Below, in pieces: positions 7,981-54,785 of a stretch of DNA of 64,000 nt. The notes below the pieces were generated by a model, which saw only the letters and a list, made by a program, of their open reading frames with translations, searched no databases and was not told the origin of the DNA. Both the position numbers and the translations under genes were made by a program. The DNA comes from Fidelibacterota bacterium (GTDB taxonomy: Bacteria; Fidelibacterota; Marinisomatia; SCGC-AAA003-L08; GCA-002704045). Location of the stretch: the NCBI GenBank assembly GCA_002703375.1, contig NZTO01000049.1, positions 38,901 to 102,900 on the forward strand. Reading direction: 5' to 3'. Every line of letters starts with the position of its first letter. Positions within the stretch are counted from its first letter, which is position 1.

Positions 7981-8014
7981 TTTCTATATATTTCTATATA
8001 TTTCTATATATTTA
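7981..8014. repeat. 10-nt tandem repeat (tttctatata) x3.4
   Basis: Three perfect copies at 7981, 7991 and 8001. It overlaps the stop codon of ORF 8004..8693 and lies upstream of the aldolase gene. Confidence 0.85.
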
Positions 8015-8693
8015 TCATACCTATGTTCAATGCATACATATAGTTTTCCGTTATAATAATGGGAATAATACTAACAAATAATTTATTAAGTATTTTTTTA
8101 ATAATATGATTTATAAAAAAACAACGAATATGTGAGAAAGAATACCCCTTTCGATATAATATTCTCCAATCGGTAAAACAAATTATTTTTGTTTTATTTG
8201 AAACCAAAAAAAAAAGTTCTATAAAATTTTCTAATTCATAAGAATCTTTTATTCTATACACATCTTCGTGTGGTCCTCTGTGATGTATTATCTGCAATGT
8301 TATTAAAGGTATATCTAGTTTCATTTCTTTTCGCACGTTTTTACAATGAATAATAAGAATATCGTCATTTGAATTAAAATATGTGTTGATTATTTCAGAA
8401 GTAAATACTTCATATTTTGTAGAACATTCTTTAATTAGGCAATTTAGTTTTTTCCTGTAGAAATAATCTCTCGGGCCTTTATCTATATGAGGAGTTTCAA
8501 TATCTATATTGTTTATTACATTTGAAATTTCTCCGTATTTGTGATCCCACGTTAACATATTTTTTTGAATATTAATCCAACGCTTGTGAATATTTTTAAA
8601 CTGTATTTCCTGATTAAAGAATAATATCACGCTAAAATAGGTAAATATATTTGTTATAAATTTGTCCTTTAATAAATATTCATATAATTTCAT
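8004..8693 (-). CDS. hypothetical protein (229 aa)
   Basis: Long ATG ORF with no competing ORF. No recognisable motif. Confidence 0.5.
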   Translation of the reverse strand: MKLYEYLLKDKFITNIFTYFSVILFFNQEIQFKNIHKRWINIQKNMLTWDHKYGEISNVINNIDIETPHIDKGPRDYFYRKKLNCLIKECSTKYEVFTSEIINTYFNSNDDILIIHCKNVRKEMKLDIPLITLQIIHHRGPHEDVYRIKDSYELENFIELFFLVSNKTKIICFTDWRILYRKGYSFSHIRCFFINHIIKKILNKLFVSIIPIIITENYMYALNIGMINI

Positions 8694-11679: not shown

Positions 11680-13251
11680 TTAGTTGGAGTAAGCAAGACC
11701 ACCCATACCACTCATGATGCGAAGCACATTGTAGTTGACGGCGTAGATTCTTACCTTGGCGGTCATAGTGCCCTCAACGGTGGCGTTCGAGAGAACGAGT
11801 TGAAGAGTGGCGTTGTCAATGCGCGAGAAATTGCAGGTGCCCGAAGGTTGGTGCTCTTCAGGGCGGAGAGCGAACGAGTAGAGATTGACGCCGGTGTCGG
11901 GGGTGCGGGTGTGGTGTTGGAATGGTTGCACGAGGTCGAAGTAGGTACCTTCACGCTCAGAGAAGCGGTCTTGACCGTTAAGTTGGAGTTTAGCGGTAAC
12001 AACAGGATTTTGGCCCCAGCAGTGCATGTTGAGAGCAGTTTCGGCGAGAACGAAGGTGCCAGCGTCCGATACAAGGGAGCCTTGCGCGGCTCCACCACCG
12101 TCATGAAGACCGGAGGTGGCCCAGCCCTCTGTGGAGCCGGCAGGCGCGTCAGCACCGGCGTTGTCAAAGAGGCCAGAGCCGTGTATCATTGTATCGAGAG
12201 AGTCACTGTTACCGAAGGCGTGGAAAGCATTAGGAAGAGCATCGTAGGCGTCGGTGTAGTTGAATGGTTGGGCGCCTAGAAGTTTGAAAAGAGGAGTTCC
12301 TGCGTCGAGAGACGAGCAGTAGTCAACGTTTTGGTCGGGTTGTACAACCCAGACGAGTTCCTTACAAGGGTGGTTGAAGTTGAGCTTGATCTTGTTCGAG
12401 GAAGAACCAACCGACTCATCACCAGTGAATTGAAGTTGTTCGATGAGGTATTCATGGGGATTTTGAGCCATGCGACGTCTCTCGTCGGTGTCAAGGAAAA
12501 TGTAGTCTACGTATAGCGAAGCGGCGACAAGAGATTGCGAGTAGGCCGCGGTCGCCTTGGGGGTGCCGCTGGTCGAGGCGATGTCAGAGACAGCCCAAAG
12601 GCACTCATCAATAGGGCGGAGGTCAATGTTAATTTTTACCTCGTGGTATTGGAGAGCGATGAGGGGTAGCGCAAGACCAGGGTTTCTGCAGTACCAGAAT
12701 TGAAGGGGAACGTAAAGAGTGGTCTCAGGAAGAGCTTTGCGAGGAGCGCAGGTTTGGCGAGGCGCGTCCGAAGAGCAAGGGGTGTCAACCTCAGCAAAGG
12801 TGGGGTCGGTGATGTAGGTTAGCGAAGTGGTTTGTCCAACCATGTTGTGGTAGCCAACTTCTTGTTCCTTAGATTGAGTTAGAGTGTTCCAGATGTGCAT
12901 CCAGTCACCGTATTGACGGTCAATGCGTTGACCACCAATCTCAATCTCAACTTGCGAAACTAGCTGATGTCCAGGGAAATCAAGCCATCGAGCATAGTAG
13001 GCATGGTCTTGGCCAATTTCTGGTAGAGTTAGTTGCAGGTAAGTTCTGTAGGCAAGATCACCATTTCTTGAGATGGTGCAAGTCACCCGGCGACCGAAAT
13101 CAGCTTGGCCGTTGAAAGTTTGTTCGATTGCTTCCATAGCAAAGTTAGTGTGGCGTCTGTAGGTAACTTTCCAGAATGTAATTTGTGGATTGCTCGTTAG
13201 ATATACGTCTTGAGCTCCGTAAGCGACGAGTTGCATAAGTCCTCCTCCCAT
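11680..13251 (-). CDS. mcp: NCLDV major capsid protein
   Basis: N-terminus MGGGLMQLVAYGAQDVYLTSNPQITFWKVTYRRHTNFAMEAIEQTFNG and later blocks (LPLIALQYHEVKI, EYLIEQLQF, NFSRIDNATL) are typical of Mimiviridae/Phycodnaviridae capsid proteins. The 523 aa are uninterrupted. Confidence 0.95.
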   Translation of the reverse strand: MGGGLMQLVAYGAQDVYLTSNPQITFWKVTYRRHTNFAMEAIEQTFNGQADFGRRVTCTISRNGDLAYRTYLQLTLPEIGQDHAYYARWLDFPGHQLVSQVEIEIGGQRIDRQYGDWMHIWNTLTQSKEQEVGYHNMVGQTTSLTYITDPTFAEVDTPCSSDAPRQTCAPRKALPETTLYVPLQFWYCRNPGLALPLIALQYHEVKINIDLRPIDECLWAVSDIASTSGTPKATAAYSQSLVAASLYVDYIFLDTDERRRMAQNPHEYLIEQLQFTGDESVGSSSNKIKLNFNHPCKELVWVVQPDQNVDYCSSLDAGTPLFKLLGAQPFNYTDAYDALPNAFHAFGNSDSLDTMIHGSGLFDNAGADAPAGSTEGWATSGLHDGGGAAQGSLVSDAGTFVLAETALNMHCWGQNPVVTAKLQLNGQDRFSEREGTYFDLVQPFQHHTRTPDTGVNLYSFALRPEEHQPSGTCNFSRIDNATLQLVLSNATVEGTMTAKVRIYAVNYNVLRIMSGMGGLAYSN

Positions 13252-19294: not shown

Positions 19295-20401
19295 TTATGT
19301 AAGTGTTTCTATATCTCCTAATAATGATGGTTCATCGTTCACTTCTTTACTAGATTCATCTATTGAATCTATGGAAATAACATCTCCTAAATCTAAATTA
19401 ACATCCTCTATTTTAAGTTTTTCATCGTCGTCGTTAGAAGTTGATTCTATTTCACTTATATCTAAATCATTTGAAAAACTAACACCCTGTTTTTCCGCAT
19501 CATTCAAATCCGGAACTTCCGTGACTAACACGGGTTCTTTGGGTTCTTCGGATTCTTCGGATTTTTTTGTATTTTCCGTATTTTCTGCATTTAACTCTTT
19601 TATATCCAACATTACTCCATAATTATCATCGCTAATTACAATATTATCTGTATCTTTTAGTTTAATAGAACTTTCATTATCATTCATAACCTCCTCAATC
19701 AAAAGATTGGGATTTGTCTTACTTTCTAATGACTCTTCATTAGATTTAGATTCCATATTTTCTTCAGAACCGTCAACGCTCACCATATCATCCTCTGCCG
19801 GAATAAGTTCCTCTTCAACTTCCATAGTTTCTTCTGTAACCTCGTCAAGATAAGAACGTAATATAGTTTCTATTGGAATTGTATCTCTCACGGAATTCAA
19901 AATGCACTCCTTTATAATAAGTTCAATCTCTCTATTGTGTTTTTGCATTTCTAATGGATTAATATTCTTTTGAAACAGATATATATTCGTATACAATTTT
20001 CTCGCTACTGAAATATAAATCTTATGAATAAAATCTGCTAAATTTGGTATATCTATGTCTACCTTTTTTTGATTTTGACCCACCCTTATACATGTCAATG
20101 CCTTTAATTGAATAATATGCACACATGTAATTAAATCCTCGATATATCCACATTTGCTATTTTCTTTTATACGCGAAACCTCATTTTCAACTAATTCTTT
20201 ATTCCATTTTGGTATTCTTGATAATAAATTTTGAAACGTCATTAAATATTTTTCATCCTCGTTGTTTTCTATACAAAGTTTATAAGCATCTTCATATATG
20301 GATTTAAACCCCTCGATAATAAAAGGACACAAAATAGTAACTAATCTTGCGGTCCATTCATTCCTCGATTCAGTTAAACTACTTATATTGTAATCGTCCA
20401 T
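19295..20401 (-). CDS. conserved hypothetical protein with acidic C-terminal tail
   Basis: The N-terminal 190 aa (WTARLVTILCPFIIEGFKSIYEDAYKLC ... YLMTFQNLLSRIPKWN) look like a conserved NCLDV domain (recall only). The C-terminal half is Glu/Asp/Ser-rich. Confidence 0.6.
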   Translation of the reverse strand: MDDYNISSLTESRNEWTARLVTILCPFIIEGFKSIYEDAYKLCIENNEDEKYLMTFQNLLSRIPKWNKELVENEVSRIKENSKCGYIEDLITCVHIIQLKALTCIRVGQNQKKVDIDIPNLADFIHKIYISVARKLYTNIYLFQKNINPLEMQKHNREIELIIKECILNSVRDTIPIETILRSYLDEVTEETMEVEEELIPAEDDMVSVDGSEENMESKSNEESLESKTNPNLLIEEVMNDNESSIKLKDTDNIVISDDNYGVMLDIKELNAENTENTKKSEESEEPKEPVLVTEVPDLNDAEKQGVSFSNDLDISEIESTSNDDDEKLKIEDVNLDLGDVISIDSIDESSKEVNDEPSLLGDIETLT

Positions 20402-21211
20402 TTACATAAATGATATATTTTCTAAATTATAATCATTACGCAAATACGTAAAATTTAATAGAAAAAACATGGCTAATTTCTCATTTTTTATATCTTTTCT
20501 TACTTTATTGAAAATAATAAATAAACGGTTTCTCTTATTTGTATCTTTAATATTTTTTTTTAAAAAATTTAATATATCAATCCCTGAATATCCTTTATTA
20601 TATAATTTATTTACTCTATCTATTAATTCTATTGATGTTGTTTTATTTGTTATATCTTTCAATAAAGTTTTAATAGAAATAGATCTTTGGTATTCTATTT
20701 TGTTGAAATCAAATGTTTTATTTACTAAATAATTATGCAGATTTACCTCCTCGTTTAAAATGACCGGCGGTGAAACATAAATCTCTGAAAATCTCGATAA
20801 TATTGGTTTCAATAATTTATATTTATTTTCTACAACAATGAAAAATCTAGTAGTATTACTAAATAATTCTATACATCTTCTTAATGCAGATTGAGCATCT
20901 ATTGTTAATTTGTCAGCATTTAACAAGACAATACTTTTGAATAATTTTTGAGAGTTGTGTATATTTGCTCTTGCAAAAAACTTCAGTTCTTCTCTTATAA
21001 ATTTAATACCTTTTCCATGACCACAATCAATGTAAATTACATATAAATTTATCAGTTCTTTATCATTATAATAAATATCGCTTATAAAATTCTGTAGTAT
21101 TGTCCGTTTACCGGTTCCCGACTCTCCATGAAATATAATGTGTGGTATCTTACGTGTTTGAATAAAATAATTTAATTTTTTTTTGATATCTTTATGAATA
21201 TCTAATCCCAT
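20402..21211 (-). CDS. replication factor C small-subunit-like AAA+ clamp loader
   Basis: Walker A FHGESGTGKRT, Walker B-region VLLNADKLT, QSALRRCIE, and an SRC-like box LKPILSRFSEIY. Confidence 0.8.
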   Translation of the reverse strand: MGLDIHKDIKKKLNYFIQTRKIPHIIFHGESGTGKRTILQNFISDIYYNDKELINLYVIYIDCGHGKGIKFIREELKFFARANIHNSQKLFKSIVLLNADKLTIDAQSALRRCIELFSNTTRFFIVVENKYKLLKPILSRFSEIYVSPPVILNEEVNLHNYLVNKTFDFNKIEYQRSISIKTLLKDITNKTTSIELIDRVNKLYNKGYSGIDILNFLKKNIKDTNKRNRLFIIFNKVRKDIKNEKLAMFFLLNFTYLRNDYNLENISFM

Positions 21212-40252: not shown

Positions 40253-40501
40253 ATGTTTACAAGAACATATGTAAGAAACAATGTATTAACAGTATCTCTA
40301 CTTTTGTTTATTGTTATATATTTTTCCATAAATATTTTAAAACCTAACTTTTTATACGATAAAGACAGTATTCTTAGAGATTTTGGTATTGGATATAGAA
40401 AAAAAACCGTACTACCATTATCTATTATTTCTATGATTTTAGCTATTTTATCTTATTTCATTGTTTTATATTACATTACCGTACCAAGAATTAGATATTG
40501 A
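40253..40501 (+). CDS. small 2-TM membrane protein (82 aa)
   Basis: Two hydrophobic helices. Confidence 0.45.
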   Translation: MFTRTYVRNNVLTVSLLLFIVIYFSINILKPNFLYDKDSILRDFGIGYRKKTVLPLSIISMILAILSYFIVLYYITVPRIRY

Positions 40502-42407
40502 ATTGTTGGGTTAAAAATGGAACACCCTGTGTTCTCATGCGTTTTTTAATATCTTTTGCTTCTTTTTTCGCTGTATATTTACTATATTCACCTAATTCTA
40601 AAGACGAAGGATCTTTTGTCGCTTTCCAAAAACTGTTATCTTGTATTTTTTTATTAAATTTTCTAGTATTATTAAAATTACTATCTTCTTTTAACAATGC
40701 AAAATTTTCCGGATTATTTTCTGTAAATCTGTTATCAATCTCATTAAATTGTTTTGTACCAGATTGATTTTGTGTTTCTATTTCACTCATGGCCGCATTA
40801 TATGCATCGGCTTGCATTTCTGCCTGACTTTTCGTATTATCATACTCACCCATGGGAATGCCAATTGATGTAAATATTTTATTTATAGGTCCAAATACAG
40901 AGTCACCCTTTACAGAACATTTCTCTTCAAGAACCTTTGTATAGGTAATAAGTATTGTCAAGAGACCGGCCAATGATATCCACATAAATTCTCCAAATAA
41001 GTCTTTTAATAAAATTACCTTATATAGTTTTGTGATTAAATTATATAATTCACTCTCTTCGCTTAATATATCTTGATTCAGTTCGTCTTCGAATTCTTGT
41101 TCATCAGACAATATATCTTCGTTGGATTCTTCTAGTTGTAAAGCTGCCTTTTTATTATCTTCATCTAGTTTCTGTAATCTTTCTATTCTTGTACGTAGTT
41201 CATTTATATCACCCTCAAAAGAATCATTATCATTTTGTAATTTTAATAATTCTGTGGTTTTATCTGTTCTTAATGATTCTATACGATTTATATTTTCAGT
41301 GATTTCATTAATTTTTTTAATTAATTCTGGCGACAAAGGCTCGCCTGTTTTTTCCTCTATTTCTTTTAATTCCATACTGATATCTGGTATACTTAAGTTA
41401 TTTAATTCATTATTGGCACCACCTTTAATATCCTCTTTATTGGTAGAAGGAGTGTTTGCTGCTGCTTCGGCCGCCGGGGCGGCGGCTGCTGCTTCTTCGG
41501 CCGCCGGGGCGGCGGCTGCTGCTTCTTCGGCCGCCGGGGCGGTGGGTGCTGCTTCTTCGGCCGCCGGGGCGGTGGGTGCACCTGTTTTGTCGTCATCCAT
41601 TTTAATAGGCTCTGCATCATCTCCTAATGCATTTATCATGGAGTTCGCAACCTTGATGTCTTGTCCTTTCCTAATAATCCTTTTACTTTTATCATCAAGT
41701 TCATCCTCATTTTCCTTAGGAATTTTTGCCTTTTCAATTATATCATCCGGAATATCCCTTATTATTTTTTCATAAATTGAAATATTAATAAATTGAGTAA
41801 ATTTATCTACGTTCATCCCATTTACAAAGTGTTTTATATTTTTGTATCTTTTATCTAATAAAGTATTTAGAAGGTCCACCAAAGATTTTGATAGTTTTCC
41901 ATCCTTTTTTTTTAATGCGGGATCATTTGGGTCATTCAATATTTTTTGAAAGAATGTTTCATATTTTTCAATACCATATAATCTAGAAGATATTTCATAG
42001 CCTATAGTATTTCCAAAAACACTTTTCCAATCCAAAGGCAAAAAATTTATTGTGAAAAATGTAGTTGAAAAAATTAACCCCCAACTTGTAACCGAAGAAA
42101 TTAAAATGGATATAATATTTTTATTAGATACATAGCCACCACAATGTTTTTGTAAATTATCAAATAAAAGTACTAATATTTGAACAGTAATTAAAATTAC
42201 TACATAGGAAATAGATGTATATGTTGCATAGGATGGCGTATGCTTCCATTTACTTTTTTTATTGCTATATGTAATCCCAAATTTTTGCAACACTGCAAAT
42301 TTAGTCATTAAATATCCAAATGTTATTATAAAAAATGTTATATATAGAGTAGTAGGTGGGTTATCTGCACCTAAATCACTTATAGTTTTCATATCGAATC
42401 TATCCAT
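40491..42407 (-). CDS. multi-pass membrane protein with Ala/Pro/Glu decapeptide repeat and coiled-coil region
   Basis: N-terminal TM helices, a central APAAEEAA repeat encoded by the 30-nt GC-rich tandem repeat, then charged coiled-coil-like sequence and a further TM segment. Confidence 0.65.
   Translation of the reverse strand: MDRFDMKTISDLGADNPPTTLYITFFIITFGYLMTKFAVLQKFGITYSNKKSKWKHTPSYATYTSISYVVILITVQILVLLFDNLQKHCGGYVSNKNIISILISSVTSWGLIFSTTFFTINFLPLDWKSVFGNTIGYEISSRLYGIEKYETFFQKILNDPNDPALKKKDGKLSKSLVDLLNTLLDKRYKNIKHFVNGMNVDKFTQFINISIYEKIIRDIPDDIIEKAKIPKENEDELDDKSKRIIRKGQDIKVANSMINALGDDAEPIKMDDDKTGAPTAPAAEEAAPTAPAAEEAAAAAPAAEEAAAAAPAAEAAANTPSTNKEDIKGGANNELNNLSIPDISMELKEIEEKTGEPLSPELIKKINEITENINRIESLRTDKTTELLKLQNDNDSFEGDINELRTRIERLQKLDEDNKKAALQLEESNEDILSDEQEFEDELNQDILSEESELYNLITKLYKVILLKDLFGEFMWISLAGLLTILITYTKVLEEKCSVKGDSVFGPINKIFTSIGIPMGEYDNTKSQAEMQADAYNAAMSEIETQNQSGTKQFNEIDNRFTENNPENFALLKEDSNFNNTRKFNKKIQDNSFWKATKDPSSLELGEYSKYTAKKEAKDIKKRMRTQGVPFLTQQFNI
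41458..41577. repeat. 30-nt GC-rich tandem repeat, 4 copies (coding)
   Basis: Units start at 41458, 41488, 41518 and 41548 (gctgcttcttcggccgccggggcgg[c/t]gg[c/g]t). On the minus strand they encode the A/P/E decapeptide repeat of ORF 40491..42407. Confidence 0.9.
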
Positions 42408-50206: not shown

Positions 50207-52501
50207 ATGGCTGAACAGGAAGTTATGACCGTATTACACGAAGACCCGCAGGTTCTCGTAAAAGACGAATTTATTACAAAAAAAGAATGTGAACATATTA
50301 TTGATATTTGTAAGGATAAACTAAAAGATGCTTTGGTAAGTAACAATCAAAAAGGATTTGTTTCTGCTGGAAGAAGTGGTAAAAATTGCTGGCTTCAGCA
50401 CGATCACGATAATATTACGAAAAAAATCGCCGAAAGAATCGCAAAAATTGTTAATATTCCATTGTCTCATGCAGAAATTTATCAAGTTATTTATTATGAT
50501 GAAACCCAGGAGTATCGTTCGCATTATGATGGTTGGTTGCATAATAACTCTGAAAAAAGTAATCGCTGTATGAAATACGGCGGACAACGTGTTGCTACTG
50601 CATTATGTTATCTCAATGATGTCGAAGAAGGAGGATGTACCGGATTCCCGCGATTAAAAATAGAGGTTCCGCCAAAACAGGGCAAATTACTTATTTTCGA
50701 AAATATAATCAAAAATTCTGGAAAAGAAACAGGTAGAAGTGAAAGGCATCCTTTATCAGAACACGCCGGAAGACCGGTTATCAAGGGGAAAAAGTGGGCT
50801 TTTAATTTGTGGTTTCGTGAAAATCCCAAGACGGTTTTGTATGTTCCTCCAGAACTGCCTTCTAATGATGTTTCAAGTACAAAGGATACTAAAAATATAC
50901 AAGATGTAAATACCAAGAACGAATCTGGAAAAACTGAAAAGATTATACATCAAGAAGTAGTAACTACTTGCTCTGGATTAAATAAAGAGACTCTCAATCA
51001 AGAACACAAGATTTATACTCACAATGGAATTATGAACGATGGTGATATAGAAAAAGTTAAAAAACTTGCCAAACTAGAAAAAACTGAAAAACGTAATAGT
51101 TCATGGATTAAATTAACAGAAATTCCGGAGATTCTTTTGAAGATTGTAAATAGTACTGGGTATAATTATTCTTTTTATGAAAACGCAAATGTTGTACAGT
51201 ATGCTTCTTCTAATACACACAATCGATTTTTAGATGCATATGATTTTAATAGTGAAAACGGAAAGCGAAATACACAAAAGGTGGGTCAGCGATTGTATTC
51301 CATCGTATGTTTTCTAGATGATAAAATGACCTACAAATTTAATAAATTAGATATTATATATCAACCACAAAAGGGTAGTATTCTAAGTTATTGTAATACA
51401 TTAAACAATAGCAATGAGCGTTCCCTTGATATGTATCATGAAATTTCAAATGAAAATGAAAATGGGGCAATGTTATTTAATATCTACGTAAGAGAAAAGA
51501 ATACAAATGGAGAGATTTTTCCAAATCACTTTGAGAATGAAAATATTAAACTAATGATTGATGATAAGGCAACTACCGGTGAAGATATTATTGTAAAAGA
51601 TGTCATCCCTACTCCACCTCCCGTACCTTCATCTGCTCCTCCACCTACCTGTAAAAATATGGAAGATAAAAAAGAGGTTTGTGAAGAGCCCAAGAAACTT
51701 GTGGAATCCAAAGAATCCGCGGAACCTACCGAGCCCAAGGAACGACCAGAATATATGAAGGAACTTCTTGAAGTTTATGATAAGTTTAAAGATGGAACTA
51801 TAACCATGCGAGGACACAAAAGCATTAAATTTATCAACAAAATACCCTTTTCGATAGTTACGGAAAATGCAAACAAACTATTCGCTACCAGAGATGAAAA
51901 ATATGGAGCACTGAATCCAAAGGTTTTCGATAAAGAATACTATATTGACGAATTTACACCTCTTGTTATTGATAATGTTTACAATGAAGCCGCGCATTCA
52001 ATTATTAAAAATTATTTCCATTCTAACATTGATGCGGGTAACTTTGCTCTTGGTGATCGTCAAGCACACAGATACAAATCGAATAACGAATCCTTTTCTC
52101 GTCTTGTTCAGTATGAACTGTTACCATTGATTGAACATGTTGTTAAAAAACCCATGAACCCTACCTATATTTATGTATCTTGTTATACAAAAGATGAGGA
52201 GAAACCTACTGAATTACCACCACATACGGATAGACCAGATTGTGAATATACTATATCCTATATTATTGATAAACCAGAAGGTTCTAATTGGCCTATTTAT
52301 GTTGATAAGACGAAACAACCTGTAAAAAATAAAGGAAGATATTGGTTTTACCCACCAAAAGAAGGTTGTGTTGCAGTAGACGCAAATGCAAATAGTTTAA
52401 TGATGTTCAATGGGACAGACCATATTCACTATAGAGAAAAAATGGAATGTGATTATTATTATATCGTTCTTTTACATTTTAGAAGCGACGGATATGAATA
52501 A
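50207..52501 (+). CDS. multi-domain 2OG-Fe(II) oxygenase (N-terminal prolyl 4-hydroxylase domain plus two further 2OG-like domains)
   Basis: Domain 1: YRSHYDGW (HxD), SEHAG (second His), KGKKWAFNLWFRE (P4H alpha-like). Domain 2: similar layout, but NRFLDAYDF stands where HxD is expected. Domain 3: PPHTDRPD (HxD) and GTDHIHYRE. The Pro-rich linker is PTPPPVPSSAPPPT. Confidence 0.75.
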   Translation: MAEQEVMTVLHEDPQVLVKDEFITKKECEHIIDICKDKLKDALVSNNQKGFVSAGRSGKNCWLQHDHDNITKKIAERIAKIVNIPLSHAEIYQVIYYDETQEYRSHYDGWLHNNSEKSNRCMKYGGQRVATALCYLNDVEEGGCTGFPRLKIEVPPKQGKLLIFENIIKNSGKETGRSERHPLSEHAGRPVIKGKKWAFNLWFRENPKTVLYVPPELPSNDVSSTKDTKNIQDVNTKNESGKTEKIIHQEVVTTCSGLNKETLNQEHKIYTHNGIMNDGDIEKVKKLAKLEKTEKRNSSWIKLTEIPEILLKIVNSTGYNYSFYENANVVQYASSNTHNRFLDAYDFNSENGKRNTQKVGQRLYSIVCFLDDKMTYKFNKLDIIYQPQKGSILSYCNTLNNSNERSLDMYHEISNENENGAMLFNIYVREKNTNGEIFPNHFENENIKLMIDDKATTGEDIIVKDVIPTPPPVPSSAPPPTCKNMEDKKEVCEEPKKLVESKESAEPTEPKERPEYMKELLEVYDKFKDGTITMRGHKSIKFINKIPFSIVTENANKLFATRDEKYGALNPKVFDKEYYIDEFTPLVIDNVYNEAAHSIIKNYFHSNIDAGNFALGDRQAHRYKSNNESFSRLVQYELLPLIEHVVKKPMNPTYIYVSCYTKDEEKPTELPPHTDRPDCEYTISYIIDKPEGSNWPIYVDKTKQPVKNKGRYWFYPPKEGCVAVDANANSLMMFNGTDHIHYREKMECDYYYIVLLHFRSDGYE

Positions 52502-52552
52502 TTTAGTAAATTCGTTAAATCATTTAAAAAAAATGTATTATTAATTATTATA

Positions 52553-53500
52553 ATGTCCAATTTTACAATGAGTGACGGTTTTCTTCTAAAAGTTTTCAGC
52601 AATAAAAATTCTCGACTTTTCGAGGAAGCTGGAAACCACGTATTAAAAGAATTTTCTGGAAGCAAGGATCAAGTTGGTATCATCTATAACGATTTCAACG
52701 CTGATGCTAAGATGGTAGATTCATGGCAAAAAGAAACAAAGGGTATGAATGTTTATCATGTCGCCCCACGTTCAAAGACCCTTCGCATGGATGCCAAGGT
52801 TCTTTTTGCGAAAAAAATGAAAGATTCGCACTATGTACCCAAGACCTATTTCAGTTATGATGAAATCCCCAGCGACACTCCCGAAAACGCCCTTTTCTTT
52901 GTTAAGAAAAATGGCTCCACTGGTTCACGCGGAGTCGATATTCATCCCTACAGTGCAATGAAAGACCTTGACTACACGGAACGCGTGGTCCAAGAAAACA
53001 TGCCGACCCCAGATTTATATGACGACAAGAGATATAAGATTCGTGCGTATGTTGTTCTTCATGACAAGAATGTTTTCCTTTTCAACAAGTCATTCGCCAC
53101 TGTTGCTAGTGAGGATTTCAAGGATGCGATTGGTGATATGGATCAAGATGTTCTCCGCAAGATGCATGTTATTTTTCAAACTAGCGGAACCAAGTTCATT
53201 CTATCGGAGGAACTTGACAAATTTGAACAAATTCAACAAAATATGCTTGTGGCCTGCAAGGATTTCAAGAATGTATACAAGGATGAAATTAAGCGCATTG
53301 AGCCCAATGAGTTCGTAATACTTGGTTTTGATTTCGTTGTTGATGCGGATGGTAATGTTCAAATCATTGAAATTAACCACCGTTCTAACTACGCTCACCC
53401 TAAGCTTATGGAGAACAAGGTAGACGTTCCTTTGTTAAAGAATCTTTACAAGCTCCTTATTCAAGGTTCCAGTCTAGACACCGATTTCCGCAAGGTTTAG
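52553..53500 (+). CDS. tubulin-tyrosine-ligase-like (TTL) ATP-grasp enzyme
   Basis: FFVKKNGSTGSRGVDIH, RYKIRAYVVLHDKNVFLF and FVILGFDFVVDADGNVQIIEINHRSN follow the TTL/ATP-grasp motif order. The gene is visibly less AT-rich than its neighbours. Confidence 0.65.
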   Translation: MSNFTMSDGFLLKVFSNKNSRLFEEAGNHVLKEFSGSKDQVGIIYNDFNADAKMVDSWQKETKGMNVYHVAPRSKTLRMDAKVLFAKKMKDSHYVPKTYFSYDEIPSDTPENALFFVKKNGSTGSRGVDIHPYSAMKDLDYTERVVQENMPTPDLYDDKRYKIRAYVVLHDKNVFLFNKSFATVASEDFKDAIGDMDQDVLRKMHVIFQTSGTKFILSEELDKFEQIQQNMLVACKDFKNVYKDEIKRIEPNEFVILGFDFVVDADGNVQIIEINHRSNYAHPKLMENKVDVPLLKNLYKLLIQGSSLDTDFRKV

Positions 53501-53539: not shown

Positions 53540-53908
53540 ATGCCATCAAAAAGTAAAAGCAAAGCTAAAAGAACTGCAAGAGAACAAAGGCGAAAACAAG
53601 GAGCTACTAATAAAAAAACCAGAGAGGAACAAAGAACAAAAAGAACCCAAAATAATAAAATAAATGAGCAACAAATGGTCGATTTAGAAGAGATAAGACA
53701 AGAAAAAGAATCATATTTGAATACTCTCAATTCAAATACATGGAAAGATCATCGCACAGTTACTGATATGTATGAACATCTACAAAATCTCATTGATACA
53801 TATAATATAAAATATGCGAAACCAACTTCTAGAGGTTCAAAAAAAAAACGAAACCTTCGAAAAAAAAGAGGGACAAGAAAAAGGAAAAGGAGAAGAAACG
53901 AAGAATAG
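53540..53908 (+). CDS. highly basic Lys/Arg-rich protein (122 aa to the TAG)
   Basis: ATG ORF with Lys/Arg-rich ends. It terminates at TAG 53906..53908, but the frame stays open for 67 more codons (see findings). Confidence 0.55.
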   Translation: MPSKSKSKAKRTAREQRRKQGATNKKTREEQRTKRTQNNKINEQQMVDLEEIRQEKESYLNTLNSNTWKDHRTVTDMYEHLQNLIDTYNIKYAKPTSRGSKKKRNLRKKRGTRKRKRRRNEE

Positions 53909-54194
53909 GAAGAAGAGAAAGGGGGTGAGAATCCCTTTGCTAAGATATCACATTTTATCGAAAATCAAAGGTCAAGGCTAAAAGCCTGGCGCGAGAGACG
54001 AGCGGAAGCGCGTGCAAGAAAAGAGAAGGAGCTGGAGACAGAGAAAGAGCGGGATAAGTTTCTTGAGGAATACGAGAACAGCCTGAATTACACAGCGCCT
54101 CGTTGGGGTTAATTAAACTAAGAGTAGTAAGAAGAGAAAATACGATGTTAATATACTATTAAATACAATTAAAAATATATTTACTGATATATAC

Positions 54195-54785
54195 ATGGCA
54201 GAAATTTCATTATTAGATATATCTCAAGACAATAAACCTATAAAACTCAATCTATCTCGCATTATTTCTTCGGGAACAATCATTTTATATATCTGGTCTT
54301 TGCCTTACTTGGCAAAGATTGGTTTCGCGGAAAAGGGCTCAACTAGCATATCCGAGTTTGTTTCAAACGCACATGCTACCGGAGCCATGGCTGTTTTATC
54401 CTTTACACCACTAACACTAATGTGGGAATATCAAGACATTCGAGTCGTGACTGTTTGCACTGAGAAAGGCAAAAGGGTGTTGTATTATACATTGGTTGCG
54501 TATCAATGGTTTTACGGGGGATTTTTAGTTTGCACCGTAAATTATGTCCCCTTATGGCTCCATATGCTAATGGTCGTTTCGTTTTGTATTTCATTTGTCA
54601 TTCATTCGATTATGACCATGAATTATACAAAACCAAGTAAATGTGGACAATATCAACTTATTGTTGGTATTTTATCCTGTGTCTGTATGCCCTTTTCCAA
54701 AGGACTATGGTTTTGGGTGTGCGAATGTGTGGGATTGTCTATGATTATGTTATTTACACCAACAGAAATATTACTAAACTATTAA
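54195..54785 (+). CDS. multi-pass membrane protein (196 aa)
   Basis: Five to six hydrophobic helices. No other motif. Confidence 0.55.
   Translation: MAEISLLDISQDNKPIKLNLSRIISSGTIILYIWSLPYLAKIGFAEKGSTSISEFVSNAHATGAMAVLSFTPLTLMWEYQDIRVVTVCTEKGKRVLYYTLVAYQWFYGGFLVCTVNYVPLWLHMLMVVSFCISFVIHSIMTMNYTKPSKCGQYQLIVGILSCVCMPFSKGLWFWVCECVGLSMIMLFTPTEILLNY

What the first reader, a model, noticed from the sequence alone, without database searches (positions are those of the whole stretch)
53906..54112. In-frame TAG followed by a 67-codon open, GC-rich extension
**Seen in the sequence.** The basic-protein ORF stops at TAG 53906..53908, but I translated the same frame onward and it stays open for 67 codons to TAA 54110..54112. 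The peptide is EEEKGGENPFAKISHFIENQRSRLKAWRERRAEARARKEKELETEKERDKFLEEYENSLNYTAPRWG. It contains no Met, which is why the ORF track misses it. The extension is compositionally foreign: 44 of 80 nt in 53981..54060 are G/C by my count. Its charged, helical character nevertheless continues the theme of the upstream protein. A 67-codon stop-free run is unlikely by chance in such an AT-rich genome.

**Inference.** Three options: (a) programmed TAG read-through producing a long isoform; (b) a recent nonsense mutation splitting a 190-aa gene; (c) the extension is the tail of a captured GC-rich (host-like) gene fused behind a viral gene.
Basis: seen in the sequence. Interest (0 to 1): 0.6.

Follow-up and report, generated by a model that had tools for sequence, protein, structure and literature searches.

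The report
GC-rich insertion behind a real stop
The open stretch after the TAG is a 219-base piece of foreign-looking DNA inserted into the variable tail of a giant-virus gene in one lineage only; nothing supports a read-through protein.

Summary
TAG sits at 53906-08, the same frame stays open for 67 codons to TAA 54110-12, there is no Met, and 44 of 80 bases are G/C.

The explanation is structural, not translational. Compared with the closest relative (L001), the window carries a clean 219-nt insertion. It consists of a 194-nt GC-rich core (53921-54114) bounded by an imperfect 25-nt direct repeat (53896-53920 and 54115-54139, 22/25). The TAG lies inside the left repeat copy. The ancestral 3' end of the gene (TKSSKKRK...LIYY*) survives after the insertion, frameshifted.

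Four other allele types of this gene in related viruses all end 33-69 nt before the next gene. None has the core.

At least five independent metagenome assemblies of the same virus population carry the insertion. They differ in a G-run 13 nt after the TAG: G5 in four assemblies, G6 in two. In G6 genomes the extension is out of frame with the TAG gene.

The peptide has no homologue in 1.84 billion proteins. Given the local T-poor composition, the frame stays open in about 4% of shuffles.

Verdict: the TAG is a genuine stop and the extension is an untranslated orphan insertion in a hypervariable gene tail. Read-through and a simple nonsense split are not supported. "Captured GC-rich DNA" is partly right, but the donor is unknown.

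The parts
53540..53908 (+). Basic-protein gene (122 aa) ending at TAG 53906-08. It is the only coding part here that is called as a gene in the assemblies.
   Evidence: ORF list. Identical protein MAP67455.1 / P0001 and variant P0122 occur on 9 contigs. The motif PTS(G)RS-K-KRK is shared with the L001 and L036 alleles.
53896..53920 (+). Left copy of the 25-nt direct repeat (AAACGAAGAATAGGAAGAAGAGAAA). It contains the TAG stop and one extra A relative to L001.
   Evidence: the repeat finder family D1. It is one of only two matches in the window at 3 or fewer mismatches, with 0 expected by chance. Alignment to L001.
53921..54114 (+). 194-nt GC-rich, purine-rich core of the insertion. It is absent from all relatives and its donor is unknown.
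   Evidence: Clean gap against L001. Absent in L010/L011/L012/L031-L039. No other copy in the window or in the loci fetched by that point, L001-L007. No Rfam or tRNA hit.
53921..53925 (+). G-run that is polymorphic in the population (G5 or G6). It sets the phase of the open stretch relative to the TAG gene.
   Evidence: G5 in the window, L007, L025 and L026/L028. G6 in L006 and L029. Consequences translated.
53909..54112 (+).
   Evidence: Translation. Shuffle statistics. No homologue.
54115..54139 (+). Right copy of the 25-nt direct repeat. It matches L001 coding sequence for TKSSKKRK at 24 of 25 positions.
54140..54162 (+). Remnant of the ancestral 3' end of the gene (...LIYY, TAA 54160-62). 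A 2-nt deletion relative to L001 puts it out of frame with TKSSKKRK.
   Evidence: Alignment A1. Six-frame translation. Excision reconstruction.
53814..53981 (+). Overlapping +1-frame ATG ORF. It is 55 aa in G5 genomes and becomes a 99-aa ORF covering the whole extension in G6 genomes. Never called as a gene.
   Evidence: No predicted protein anywhere matches the extension.
53558..54330 (+). Hypervariable or recombinant tract. It is the only part of the locus that differs between the window and the otherwise 96-99% identical scaffold L036.
   Evidence: Identity profiles and pairwise identities.
54195..54785 (+). Downstream conserved membrane-protein gene, used as the anchor for the comparative loci.

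Best explanation
One lineage of an uncultured marine giant virus acquired a 219-nt insertion in the hypervariable basic C-terminal tail of a small, fast-evolving basic-protein gene. The insertion is a 194-nt core of unknown foreign origin plus a duplicated 25-nt stretch of the target.

The gene now terminates at TAG 53906-08, which lies inside the left copy of the duplicated target. That copy is read one base out of phase with the orthologue because of an extra A. The product ends ...RKRKRRRNEE instead of ...RRRTKSSKKRKNATLIYY.

Everything downstream is untranslated 3' sequence: the GC-rich core, the right repeat copy and the frameshifted remnant of the old gene end. The 67-codon open stretch follows from the core's T-poor, purine-rich make-up. 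It may also reflect a coding past, either in the donor or briefly in the virus.

Shown: the insertion, the repeat, the empty sites in relatives, the population polymorphism and the absence of homologues. Inferred: that the TAG terminates translation, the direction of the event (gain rather than loss), and the mechanism of insertion.
For: 1. Filled versus empty site. The window aligns to L001 with one clean 220-column gap (about 53896-54115). L001 reads straight through ...RRRTKSSKKRKNATLIYY*.

2. The 25-nt direct repeat sits exactly at the two edges, spaced 219 nt = 3 x 73. It is unique in the window, with 0 expected by chance.

3. The right repeat plus LIYY-TAA is retained after the insert but broken by a 2-nt deletion.

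4. Four other allele types lack the core. L001/L009 is 125 aa, L010/L011/L031 is 143 aa, L012 is at least 110 aa, and L032-L039 are up to 154 aa. All stop 33-69 nt before the membrane gene, against 286 nt in the window.

5. The insertion is real and not an assembly artefact. It is present in the NCBI MAG contig and in ENA ERZ840938, ERZ840062, ERZ23499537, JGI 3300020394 and 3300020402.

6. The phase is not conserved. G5 and G6 each occur in at least two assemblies, and all four combinations with SNP 53831 are seen. In G6 genomes the TAG frame hits TGA after 6 codons.

7. There are no homologues of the 67-aa peptide.
- 0 hits among 1.84 billion representative proteins.
- None in the 5.8-billion-sequence word search.
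- None in IMG/VR or JGI metagenomes.
- The other frames gave nothing.

8. Codon usage is foreign: GAG:GAA is 10:5 against 316:1106 in the window's genes, and Arg uses CGN codons.

9. TAG is an ordinary stop here, ending 11 of 49 long ORFs.
Against: - The frame is open for the whole core, which happens in only about 4% of composition-matched shuffles.
- With G6 and without the extra A, the gene would run uninterrupted through the core as a 190-aa ORF. Some coding history is therefore possible.
- A modest hairpin (-12.4 kcal/mol, z=-1.8) starts about 10 nt after the UAG. This is the sort of position where read-through stimulators sit.
- There are no expression data of any kind.
- The polarity (gain in this lineage rather than repeat-mediated loss elsewhere) rests on parsimony across very divergent alleles.
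Confidence: 0.75

Rival explanations
1. Disabled in-frame extension. The insertion originally fused 64 new codons in frame to the basic tail (...RRRTK(S/N)(S/R)KKRKGGENPF...APRWG*, a 190-aa protein). A later +1 insertion of an A at 53896-98 cut it off at TAG. G6-to-G5 is a later neutral change. The extension would then be a recently dead coding sequence.
For: - Removing one A and using the G6 allele gives an uninterrupted 190-codon ORF.
- The insert length is a multiple of 3.
- The left repeat, read in the L001 phase, gives TKNRKKRK, a conservative version of TKSSKKRK.
- The core is open in exactly that phase; openness alone is about 4-10% by chance.
Against: - Every assembly carries the extra A, so no intact long allele has been seen.
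- No homologue of the tail exists anywhere.
- No significant 3-base periodicity.
- Two of the three changes in the left repeat are non-synonymous in that phase.
Confidence: 0.2
2. Recombination junction rather than a simple insertion. The window allele is a mosaic. A divergent allele carrying the core at its 3' end was joined by illegitimate or unequal recombination to an L001-like right-hand tract. The 25-mer is present twice because both parents had it.
For: - The window is 96-99% identical to L036 on both flanks, but only about 73% (nt) and 38% (aa) in the gene.
- The window is 93% identical to L001 in 54116-54330, against 81% to L036, although L001 is only 79-89% identical elsewhere.
- The three mismatches between the repeat copies fit two different parental sequences.
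Against: - No parent allele carrying the core has been found in any collection.
- The high identity to L001 around the promoter and the start of the next gene could be plain functional conservation.
Confidence: 0.15
3. Retroposition-type capture (target-primed reverse transcription by a host LINE-like element) of a host RNA fragment, as shown for poxvirus gene capture.
For: - A flanking target-site-like duplication of 25 nt and an empty site in a relative.
- In cowpox vGAAP a nearly identical 21-bp duplication with a pseudo-empty site was the key signature, and TSDs of about 8-20 bp are typical (PMC9578705).
- The duplicated target starts with AAA.
Against: - No poly(A) tract before the right repeat (...GGGGTTAATT|AAAC) in either orientation.
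- The cut site AG|AAAC is a poor match to TT|AAAA.
- No tRNA-, 7SL- or 5S-like SINE head.
- No donor gene found.
Confidence: 0.07
4. Programmed UAG read-through in G5 genomes produces a minor 189-aa isoform with an acidic or helical tail.
For: - The open frame is in phase with the gene in 4 of 6 assemblies.
- A hairpin lies about 10 nt downstream of UAG.
- Recoding exists in giant viruses: the Mimivirus release-factor gene uses a frameshift plus a read-through (PMC3521657).
Against: - The extension is absent in all relatives and has no homologues.
- G6 genomes circulate in which the product would gain only 6 residues.
- UAG is followed by G and there is no CARYYA-type motif.
- The hairpin is not exceptional: 10 of 200 shuffles fold as well.
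Confidence: 0.04

Closest known systems
Host-sequence capture in poxviruses flanked by target-site duplications (vGAAP, the taterapox SINE, experimental K3L capture; PMC9578705, PMC9578709)
   Same: A large DNA virus of eukaryotes. A discrete block of compositionally foreign DNA. Near-identical direct repeats of about 20-25 bp at both edges. A relative with a single repeat copy that serves as an empty site.
   Different: There is no poly(A) remnant, no convincing endonuclease site, no identifiable donor gene and no complete ORF. The insert lands inside a gene's 3' end and shortens its product instead of adding a gene.
Programmed stop-codon read-through in viruses (TMV replicase, MuLV gag-pol, luteovirus CP-RTD) and the Mimivirus release-factor gene (PMC3521657)
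   Same: An in-frame UAG followed by a long open frame. A hairpin lies a short distance downstream.
   Different: Those extensions are conserved at the protein level among relatives and their phase is invariant. Here the extension is lineage-specific and orphan, and a frameshifting polymorphism is tolerated just after the stop.
Selfish short insertions inside coding regions of AT-rich genomes (Rickettsia palindromic elements; yeast mitochondrial GC clusters), cited from my own knowledge
   Same: A short (about 100-200 nt) block that is relatively GC-rich, inserted into a protein-coding gene of an AT-rich genome, with a length that is a multiple of 3.
   Different: Those elements are multi-copy and palindromic or structured. 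This one is single-copy, shows no fold signal and has no inverted termini.
Hypervariable low-complexity tails and indel hot spots in giant-virus genes, driven by replication slippage or recombination
   Same: The tail of this gene varies in length by repeat units among near-identical genomes: GKK, GT and TK repeats, and a 28-nt indel. One assembly even has an N-gap there.
   Different: The 194-nt core is not a repeat expansion of local sequence. It has a different composition and no local source.

Membership tests
Programmed stop-codon read-through | Downstream reading frame conserved at the protein level in related viruses | tested here: not met
   The core is absent from L001/L009, L010/L011, L012 and L031-L039. 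There are 0 homologues in 1.84 billion proteins.
Programmed stop-codon read-through | Phase between the stop codon and the extension is maintained | tested here: not met
   A G5/G6 polymorphism lies 13 nt after the TAG, each state in at least two assemblies. G6 gives TGA after 6 codons.
Programmed stop-codon read-through | Leaky stop context or a stimulatory RNA structure a few bases downstream | tested here: inconclusive
   UAG-GAA-GAA has no CARYYA motif and no +4 C. The hairpin is -12.4 kcal/mol with z=-1.79, and 10 of 200 shuffles fold as well.
Programmed stop-codon read-through | Extended protein detected | not testable with these tools
   The virus is uncultured and no proteome or ribosome profiling data were available.
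Gene split by a nonsense mutation | Orthologues have a sense codon at the stop position and a homologous downstream part | tested here: not met
   Orthologues are 110-154 aa and end in their own basic or aromatic tails. None has the downstream part.
LINE/TPRT-mediated capture (poxvirus type) | Target-site duplication flanking the insert, with an empty site in relatives | tested here: met
   The 25-nt repeat matches 22/25 at both edges. L001 has a single copy.
LINE/TPRT-mediated capture (poxvirus type) | Poly(A) tract at the 3' junction | tested here: not met
   The junction reads GGGGTTAATT|AAACTAAG. The reverse orientation ends in CACCCCC.
LINE/TPRT-mediated capture (poxvirus type) | Identifiable cellular donor (mRNA or SINE) | tested here: not met
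   No protein homologue in any frame. No tRNA, 7SL, 5S or other Rfam hit. Eukaryotic host genomes could not be searched at the DNA level.
MITE / DNA transposon | Terminal inverted repeats and multiple copies | tested here: not met
   No inverted repeat at the termini. Single copy in the window and in the loci fetched by then, L001-L007. None in IMG/VR.
Group I intron or other structured RNA insert | Match to an RNA family, or a fold more stable than shuffles | tested here: not met
   Rfam at E up to 10 gave only three chance hits, all outside the insert. Fold z-scores are -0.47 and +0.29.
Assembly artefact / chimera | Present in only one assembly, with junctions at shared k-mers | tested here: not met
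   The same insert and junctions occur in at least five other assemblies from different pipelines and samples.

The most novel reading that the evidence does not exclude
The 194-nt core is a fragment of host (protist) or other cellular nucleic acid. It was captured by a break-repair or retroposition-type event that duplicated 25 bp of target. It was born as an in-frame 64-residue C-terminal extension of a rapidly diversifying basic virion or nuclear protein (the G6, no-extra-A state). That would be a caught-in-the-act case of protein-tail birth and death from captured DNA in a marine giant virus. The G-run and A-runs could still allow low-level access to the tail by slippage or read-through.
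Probability: 0.12. Interest if true: 0.55.

Novelty: new member of a known kind. Interest (0 to 1): 0.3.

Why it matters
This matters mainly as a correction. An in-frame stop followed by a long open GC-rich stretch looks like recoding, but comparative and population data show a lineage-specific insertion behind a genuine stop. It should not be annotated as a read-through gene.

The modest positive value has two parts.
- It is a clean filled-site and empty-site pair, with a 25-nt duplication, for orphan foreign DNA entering an uncultured marine giant virus. That is the signature used to infer host-gene capture in poxviruses.
- It sits in a small basic-protein gene that is the only strongly divergent tract between otherwise 96-99% identical genomes. 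That marks the gene as a recombination or diversification hot spot worth study in its own right.

Tried and rejected
- **Structured RNA or intron:** Rfam at E up to 10 found nothing in the insert. Folds on both strands were no better than shuffles. No tRNA-like element.
- **Mobile-element family:** no terminal inverted repeats. No second copy in the window or in the loci held at that point, L001-L007, by blastn with word size 7 and by tblastn. None in IMG/VR by six back-translated peptide patterns or by a degenerate KAWRERRAEA pattern.
  - The single hit, L005, is a chance match in a high-GC phage contig.
- **Donor search:**
  - phmmer of the 67-aa peptide against 1.84 billion representatives gave 0 hits.
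  - The 5.8-billion-sequence word search with the joined 189-aa protein returned only the 122-aa protein itself.
  - Alternative-frame peptides, concatenated, gave nothing.
  - JGI metagenomes gave nothing.
  - GTDB genomes gave one hit, L008. It is a 20-residue 'RLKAWRERRA' match in the tail of what looks like an RND-type efflux pump of a Betaproteobacterium. It was seeded by the search pattern and I judge it to be chance.
  - Plasmid and phage blastn gave nothing.
  - Pfam gave nothing above threshold.
- **Alternative genetic code (TAG as sense):** rejected. TAG ends 11 of 49 long ORFs and the long genes are intact under the standard code.
- **Assembly artefact:** rejected.
- **Lineage naming:** the search for closer relatives using the basic protein in IMG/VR found nothing. 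The MCP search returned only unnamed environmental proteins, so the virus could not be placed more finely than an NCLDV, whose closest contigs include two IMG/VR GVMAG bins.

Full report
**1. What is in the sequence**

The 122-aa ORF 53540-53908 ends at TAG 53906-08. The same frame then runs 67 sense codons to TAA 54110-12 (EEEKGGENPF...TAPRWG, no Met). G+C is 44/80 in 53981-54060 and 48% over the whole stretch. The window as a whole is 30% and the upstream gene 31%.

The window is a giant-virus (NCLDV) contig.
- It encodes an NCLDV major capsid protein (Pfam Capsid_NCLDV, E=3e-61). It also encodes a 2OG-Fe(II) oxygenase, a TTL-like ATP-grasp protein and a family-17 glycosyltransferase.
- Its closest IMG/VR relatives include two GVMAG bins.
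- In NCBI the contig is filed under a 'Candidatus Marinimicrobia' MAG.

**2. Is the open frame more than chance?**

Only marginally. With genome-wide base frequencies p is about 0.004, but the segment is T-poor and purine-rich.
- Dinucleotide-preserving shuffles of the 201 nt leave this frame open 3.7% of the time, some forward frame 10%, and some frame of six 39%.
- Three-base periodicity is not significant (p=0.14).
- Codon usage differs from the viral genes: GAG exceeds GAA, and Arg uses CGN codons.
- TAG is a normal stop in this genome, ending 11 of 49 long ORFs.

**3. The key result: it is an insertion**

The neighbouring TTL-like gene retrieved four related IMG/VR loci. In the closest one, L001, that neighbour is 95% identical at the protein level. 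There the orthologous basic protein (125 aa) ends ...GGTRKRRRTKSSKKRKNATLIYY*, and the next gene starts 33 nt later.

The pairwise alignment shows one clean gap of 220 columns. The window has extra DNA from about 53896 to 54115.

The edges are an imperfect 25-nt direct repeat: 53896-53920 AAACGAAGAATAGGAAGAAGAGAAA and 54115-54139 AAACTAAGAGTAGTAAGAAGAGAAA. They match at 22/25 and are spaced 219 nt = 3 x 73. These are the only two matches in the window at 3 or fewer mismatches, with none expected by chance.

The right copy matches L001's codons for TKSSKKRK at 24 of 25 positions. It is followed by the relic ...LIYY-TAA (54148-54162). A 2-nt deletion now puts that relic out of frame with TKSSKKRK.

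The left copy carries one extra A relative to L001 (GAAGAAAC against GAAGAAC). The gene therefore reads it as N-E-E-stop rather than T-K-N-R-K-K-R-K. That is the origin of the TAG.

Between the repeats lies a 194-nt core, 53921-54114. The flagged open frame spans it and ends 2 nt before its right edge.

**4. More relatives, all with empty sites**

I used the downstream membrane protein as an anchor. I also used members of its 90%-identity cluster. Together they gave four further allele classes of the basic gene.
- L010/L011/L031: 143 aa, ...KRNY(K/N)IKHHEIH(V/I)F*
- L012: ...HHDSFYF*
- L032-L039: up to 154 aa, ...KKYNIKHH(D/N)MVYA*
- L001/L009: as described above

All stop 33-69 nt before the membrane gene, against 286 nt in the window. 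None contains the core. The more distant L003 and L004 have 187-194-aa basic proteins, also without it.

The tails differ by GKK, GT and TK repeat units and by a 28-nt indel. One scaffold (L030) has an N-gap exactly there. This tail is therefore an indel hot spot.

**5. The insertion is real and fixed in its population, but its phase is not**

Exact-protein look-ups found the same allele in other assemblies. These are ENA ERZ840938 (L006, 99.95% identical over 3.6 kb), ERZ23499537 (L007, 99.5%), ERZ840062 (L025), JGI 3300020394 (L026/L028) and JGI 3300020402 (L029). All carry the insert and its junctions. L007 covers only the left junction.

The only variation inside the insert is the G-run at 53921-25. 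It is G5 in the window, L007, L025 and L026/L028, and G6 in L006 and L029. All four combinations with SNP 53831 (A/G) occur.
- In G6 genomes the TAG frame meets TGA after six codons.
- In G6 genomes the open stretch falls instead into the phase of an overlapping ATG ORF (53814), which then spans 99 codons.
- With G6 and without the extra A, the basic gene would run uninterrupted for 190 codons.

A frameshifting polymorphism tolerated 13 nt after the stop argues against a maintained read-through product.

**6. What the core is not**

- It is not a known or structured RNA.
- It is not bounded by inverted repeats.
- It is not repeated in the window or in the loci held at that stage, L001-L007.
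- It was not found in IMG/VR, JGI metagenomes, GTDB genomes, plasmids or phages. The two pattern hits, L005 and L008, are short chance matches seeded by the search pattern itself.
- It has no protein homologue in the open frame among 1.84 billion representatives or in the 5.8-billion-sequence word search. The other frames also gave nothing.

For a 67-aa query, a donor of at least about 50% identity should have been detectable. The donor is therefore unsampled, non-coding or strongly diverged.

**7. Context: a hypervariable cassette**

Scaffold L036 (Tara, 114 kb) is 96-99% identical to the window in the flanking genes. It drops to about 73% (nt) and 38% (aa) in the basic gene.

The divergent tract runs from about 53558 to about 54330. 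Within it, the right-hand part (54116-54330) is 93% identical to L001 but only 81% to L036. L001 is otherwise only 79-89% identical to the window.

The locus is therefore mosaic. The basic gene is either exchanged by recombination among co-circulating viruses or evolving very fast. This leaves room for a variant history in which the 25-mer is duplicated because two divergent alleles were joined illegitimately, rather than by a target-site duplication.

**8. Mechanism**

Most likely (about 0.75): a one-off insertion of orphan DNA with duplication of 25 nt of target, placed in the dispensable and variable basic tail. The product is shortened by about 15 residues and keeps its basic tract and the conserved PTS(G)RS-K-KRK motif. 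The TAG terminates translation, and the core is 3' untranslated sequence.

The duplication resembles the signature used to infer LINE-1-mediated capture in poxviruses, namely a 21-bp duplication plus a pseudo-empty site for vGAAP (PMC9578705). Here, however, the poly(A) tract, the endonuclease site and the donor are all missing. I rate retroposition low (0.07) and leave the mechanism as break repair or illegitimate recombination.

A brief coding past for the tail is possible (0.2). Programmed read-through is unlikely (0.04), even though recoding does occur in giant viruses (PMC3521657). In that case homology across the stops was the evidence, and here there is none.

**9. Verdict**

The feature is a new example of a known kind of event, and its interest is low to moderate (0.3). 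The hypervariable basic-protein cassette is arguably the more interesting by-product.

Noticed in passing
window 53558-54330 vs L036:968-1640: The basic-protein gene and the first ~40 codons of the next gene are the only strongly divergent tract (about 73% nt, 38% aa) between two genomes that are 96-99% identical on both sides. The right end of the tract is closer to the more distant virus L001 (93%) than to L036 (81%). This points to a recombination or diversification hot spot.
   Followed up: partly
window 11680-13251 (-): The NCLDV major capsid protein gene is 52% G+C in a 30% G+C genome. Its codon usage is very different from the other genes: no TTA or TTG Leu codons, and CGC is the main Arg codon.
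   Followed up: partly
whole window: The contig is deposited in NCBI as part of a 'Candidatus Marinimicrobia bacterium' MAG (CMF80_07145 / MAP67455.1). It nevertheless encodes an NCLDV capsid protein, and two of its closest IMG/VR contigs are GVMAG bins. It is a giant-virus contig mis-binned into a bacterial MAG.
   Followed up: partly
L001:6953-7246: The closest relative has an extra 97-aa ORF between the TTL-like gene and the basic gene. The window lacks it. This is another presence/absence difference at the same locus.
   Followed up: no
L030:~1420-1520: An independent 57-kb scaffold has a run of N exactly in the variable basic tail of this gene. This suggests assemblers struggle with within-sample variation there.
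   Followed up: no
window 19295-21211 (-); 8004-8693 (-); 50207-53500 (+): Several neighbouring ORFs lie in the same frame, separated by a single stop or a short stop-free spacer. For example, 20402-21211 ends at TAA and 19295-20401 follows directly. Most are probably chance phase coincidences, but the directly abutting pair could be a split gene.
   Followed up: no
window 41371-41680 (-): A GC-rich (53%) island encodes an Ala/Pro/Glu repeat (APTAPAAEEA...) inside the 638-aa ORF 40491-42407.
   Followed up: no
window 53839-53848 and 53860-53867: A10 and A8 homopolymer runs lie in the lysine-rich tail just upstream of the TAG. They are potential slippage sites, and the +1 frame from there is the one that joins the extension in G6 genomes.
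   Followed up: no
window 54116-54200: In the TKSSKKRK phase, the relic of the old gene end reads without a stop into the ATG of the downstream membrane-protein gene (…TDIYMAEIS…). This is probably coincidental.
   Followed up: no
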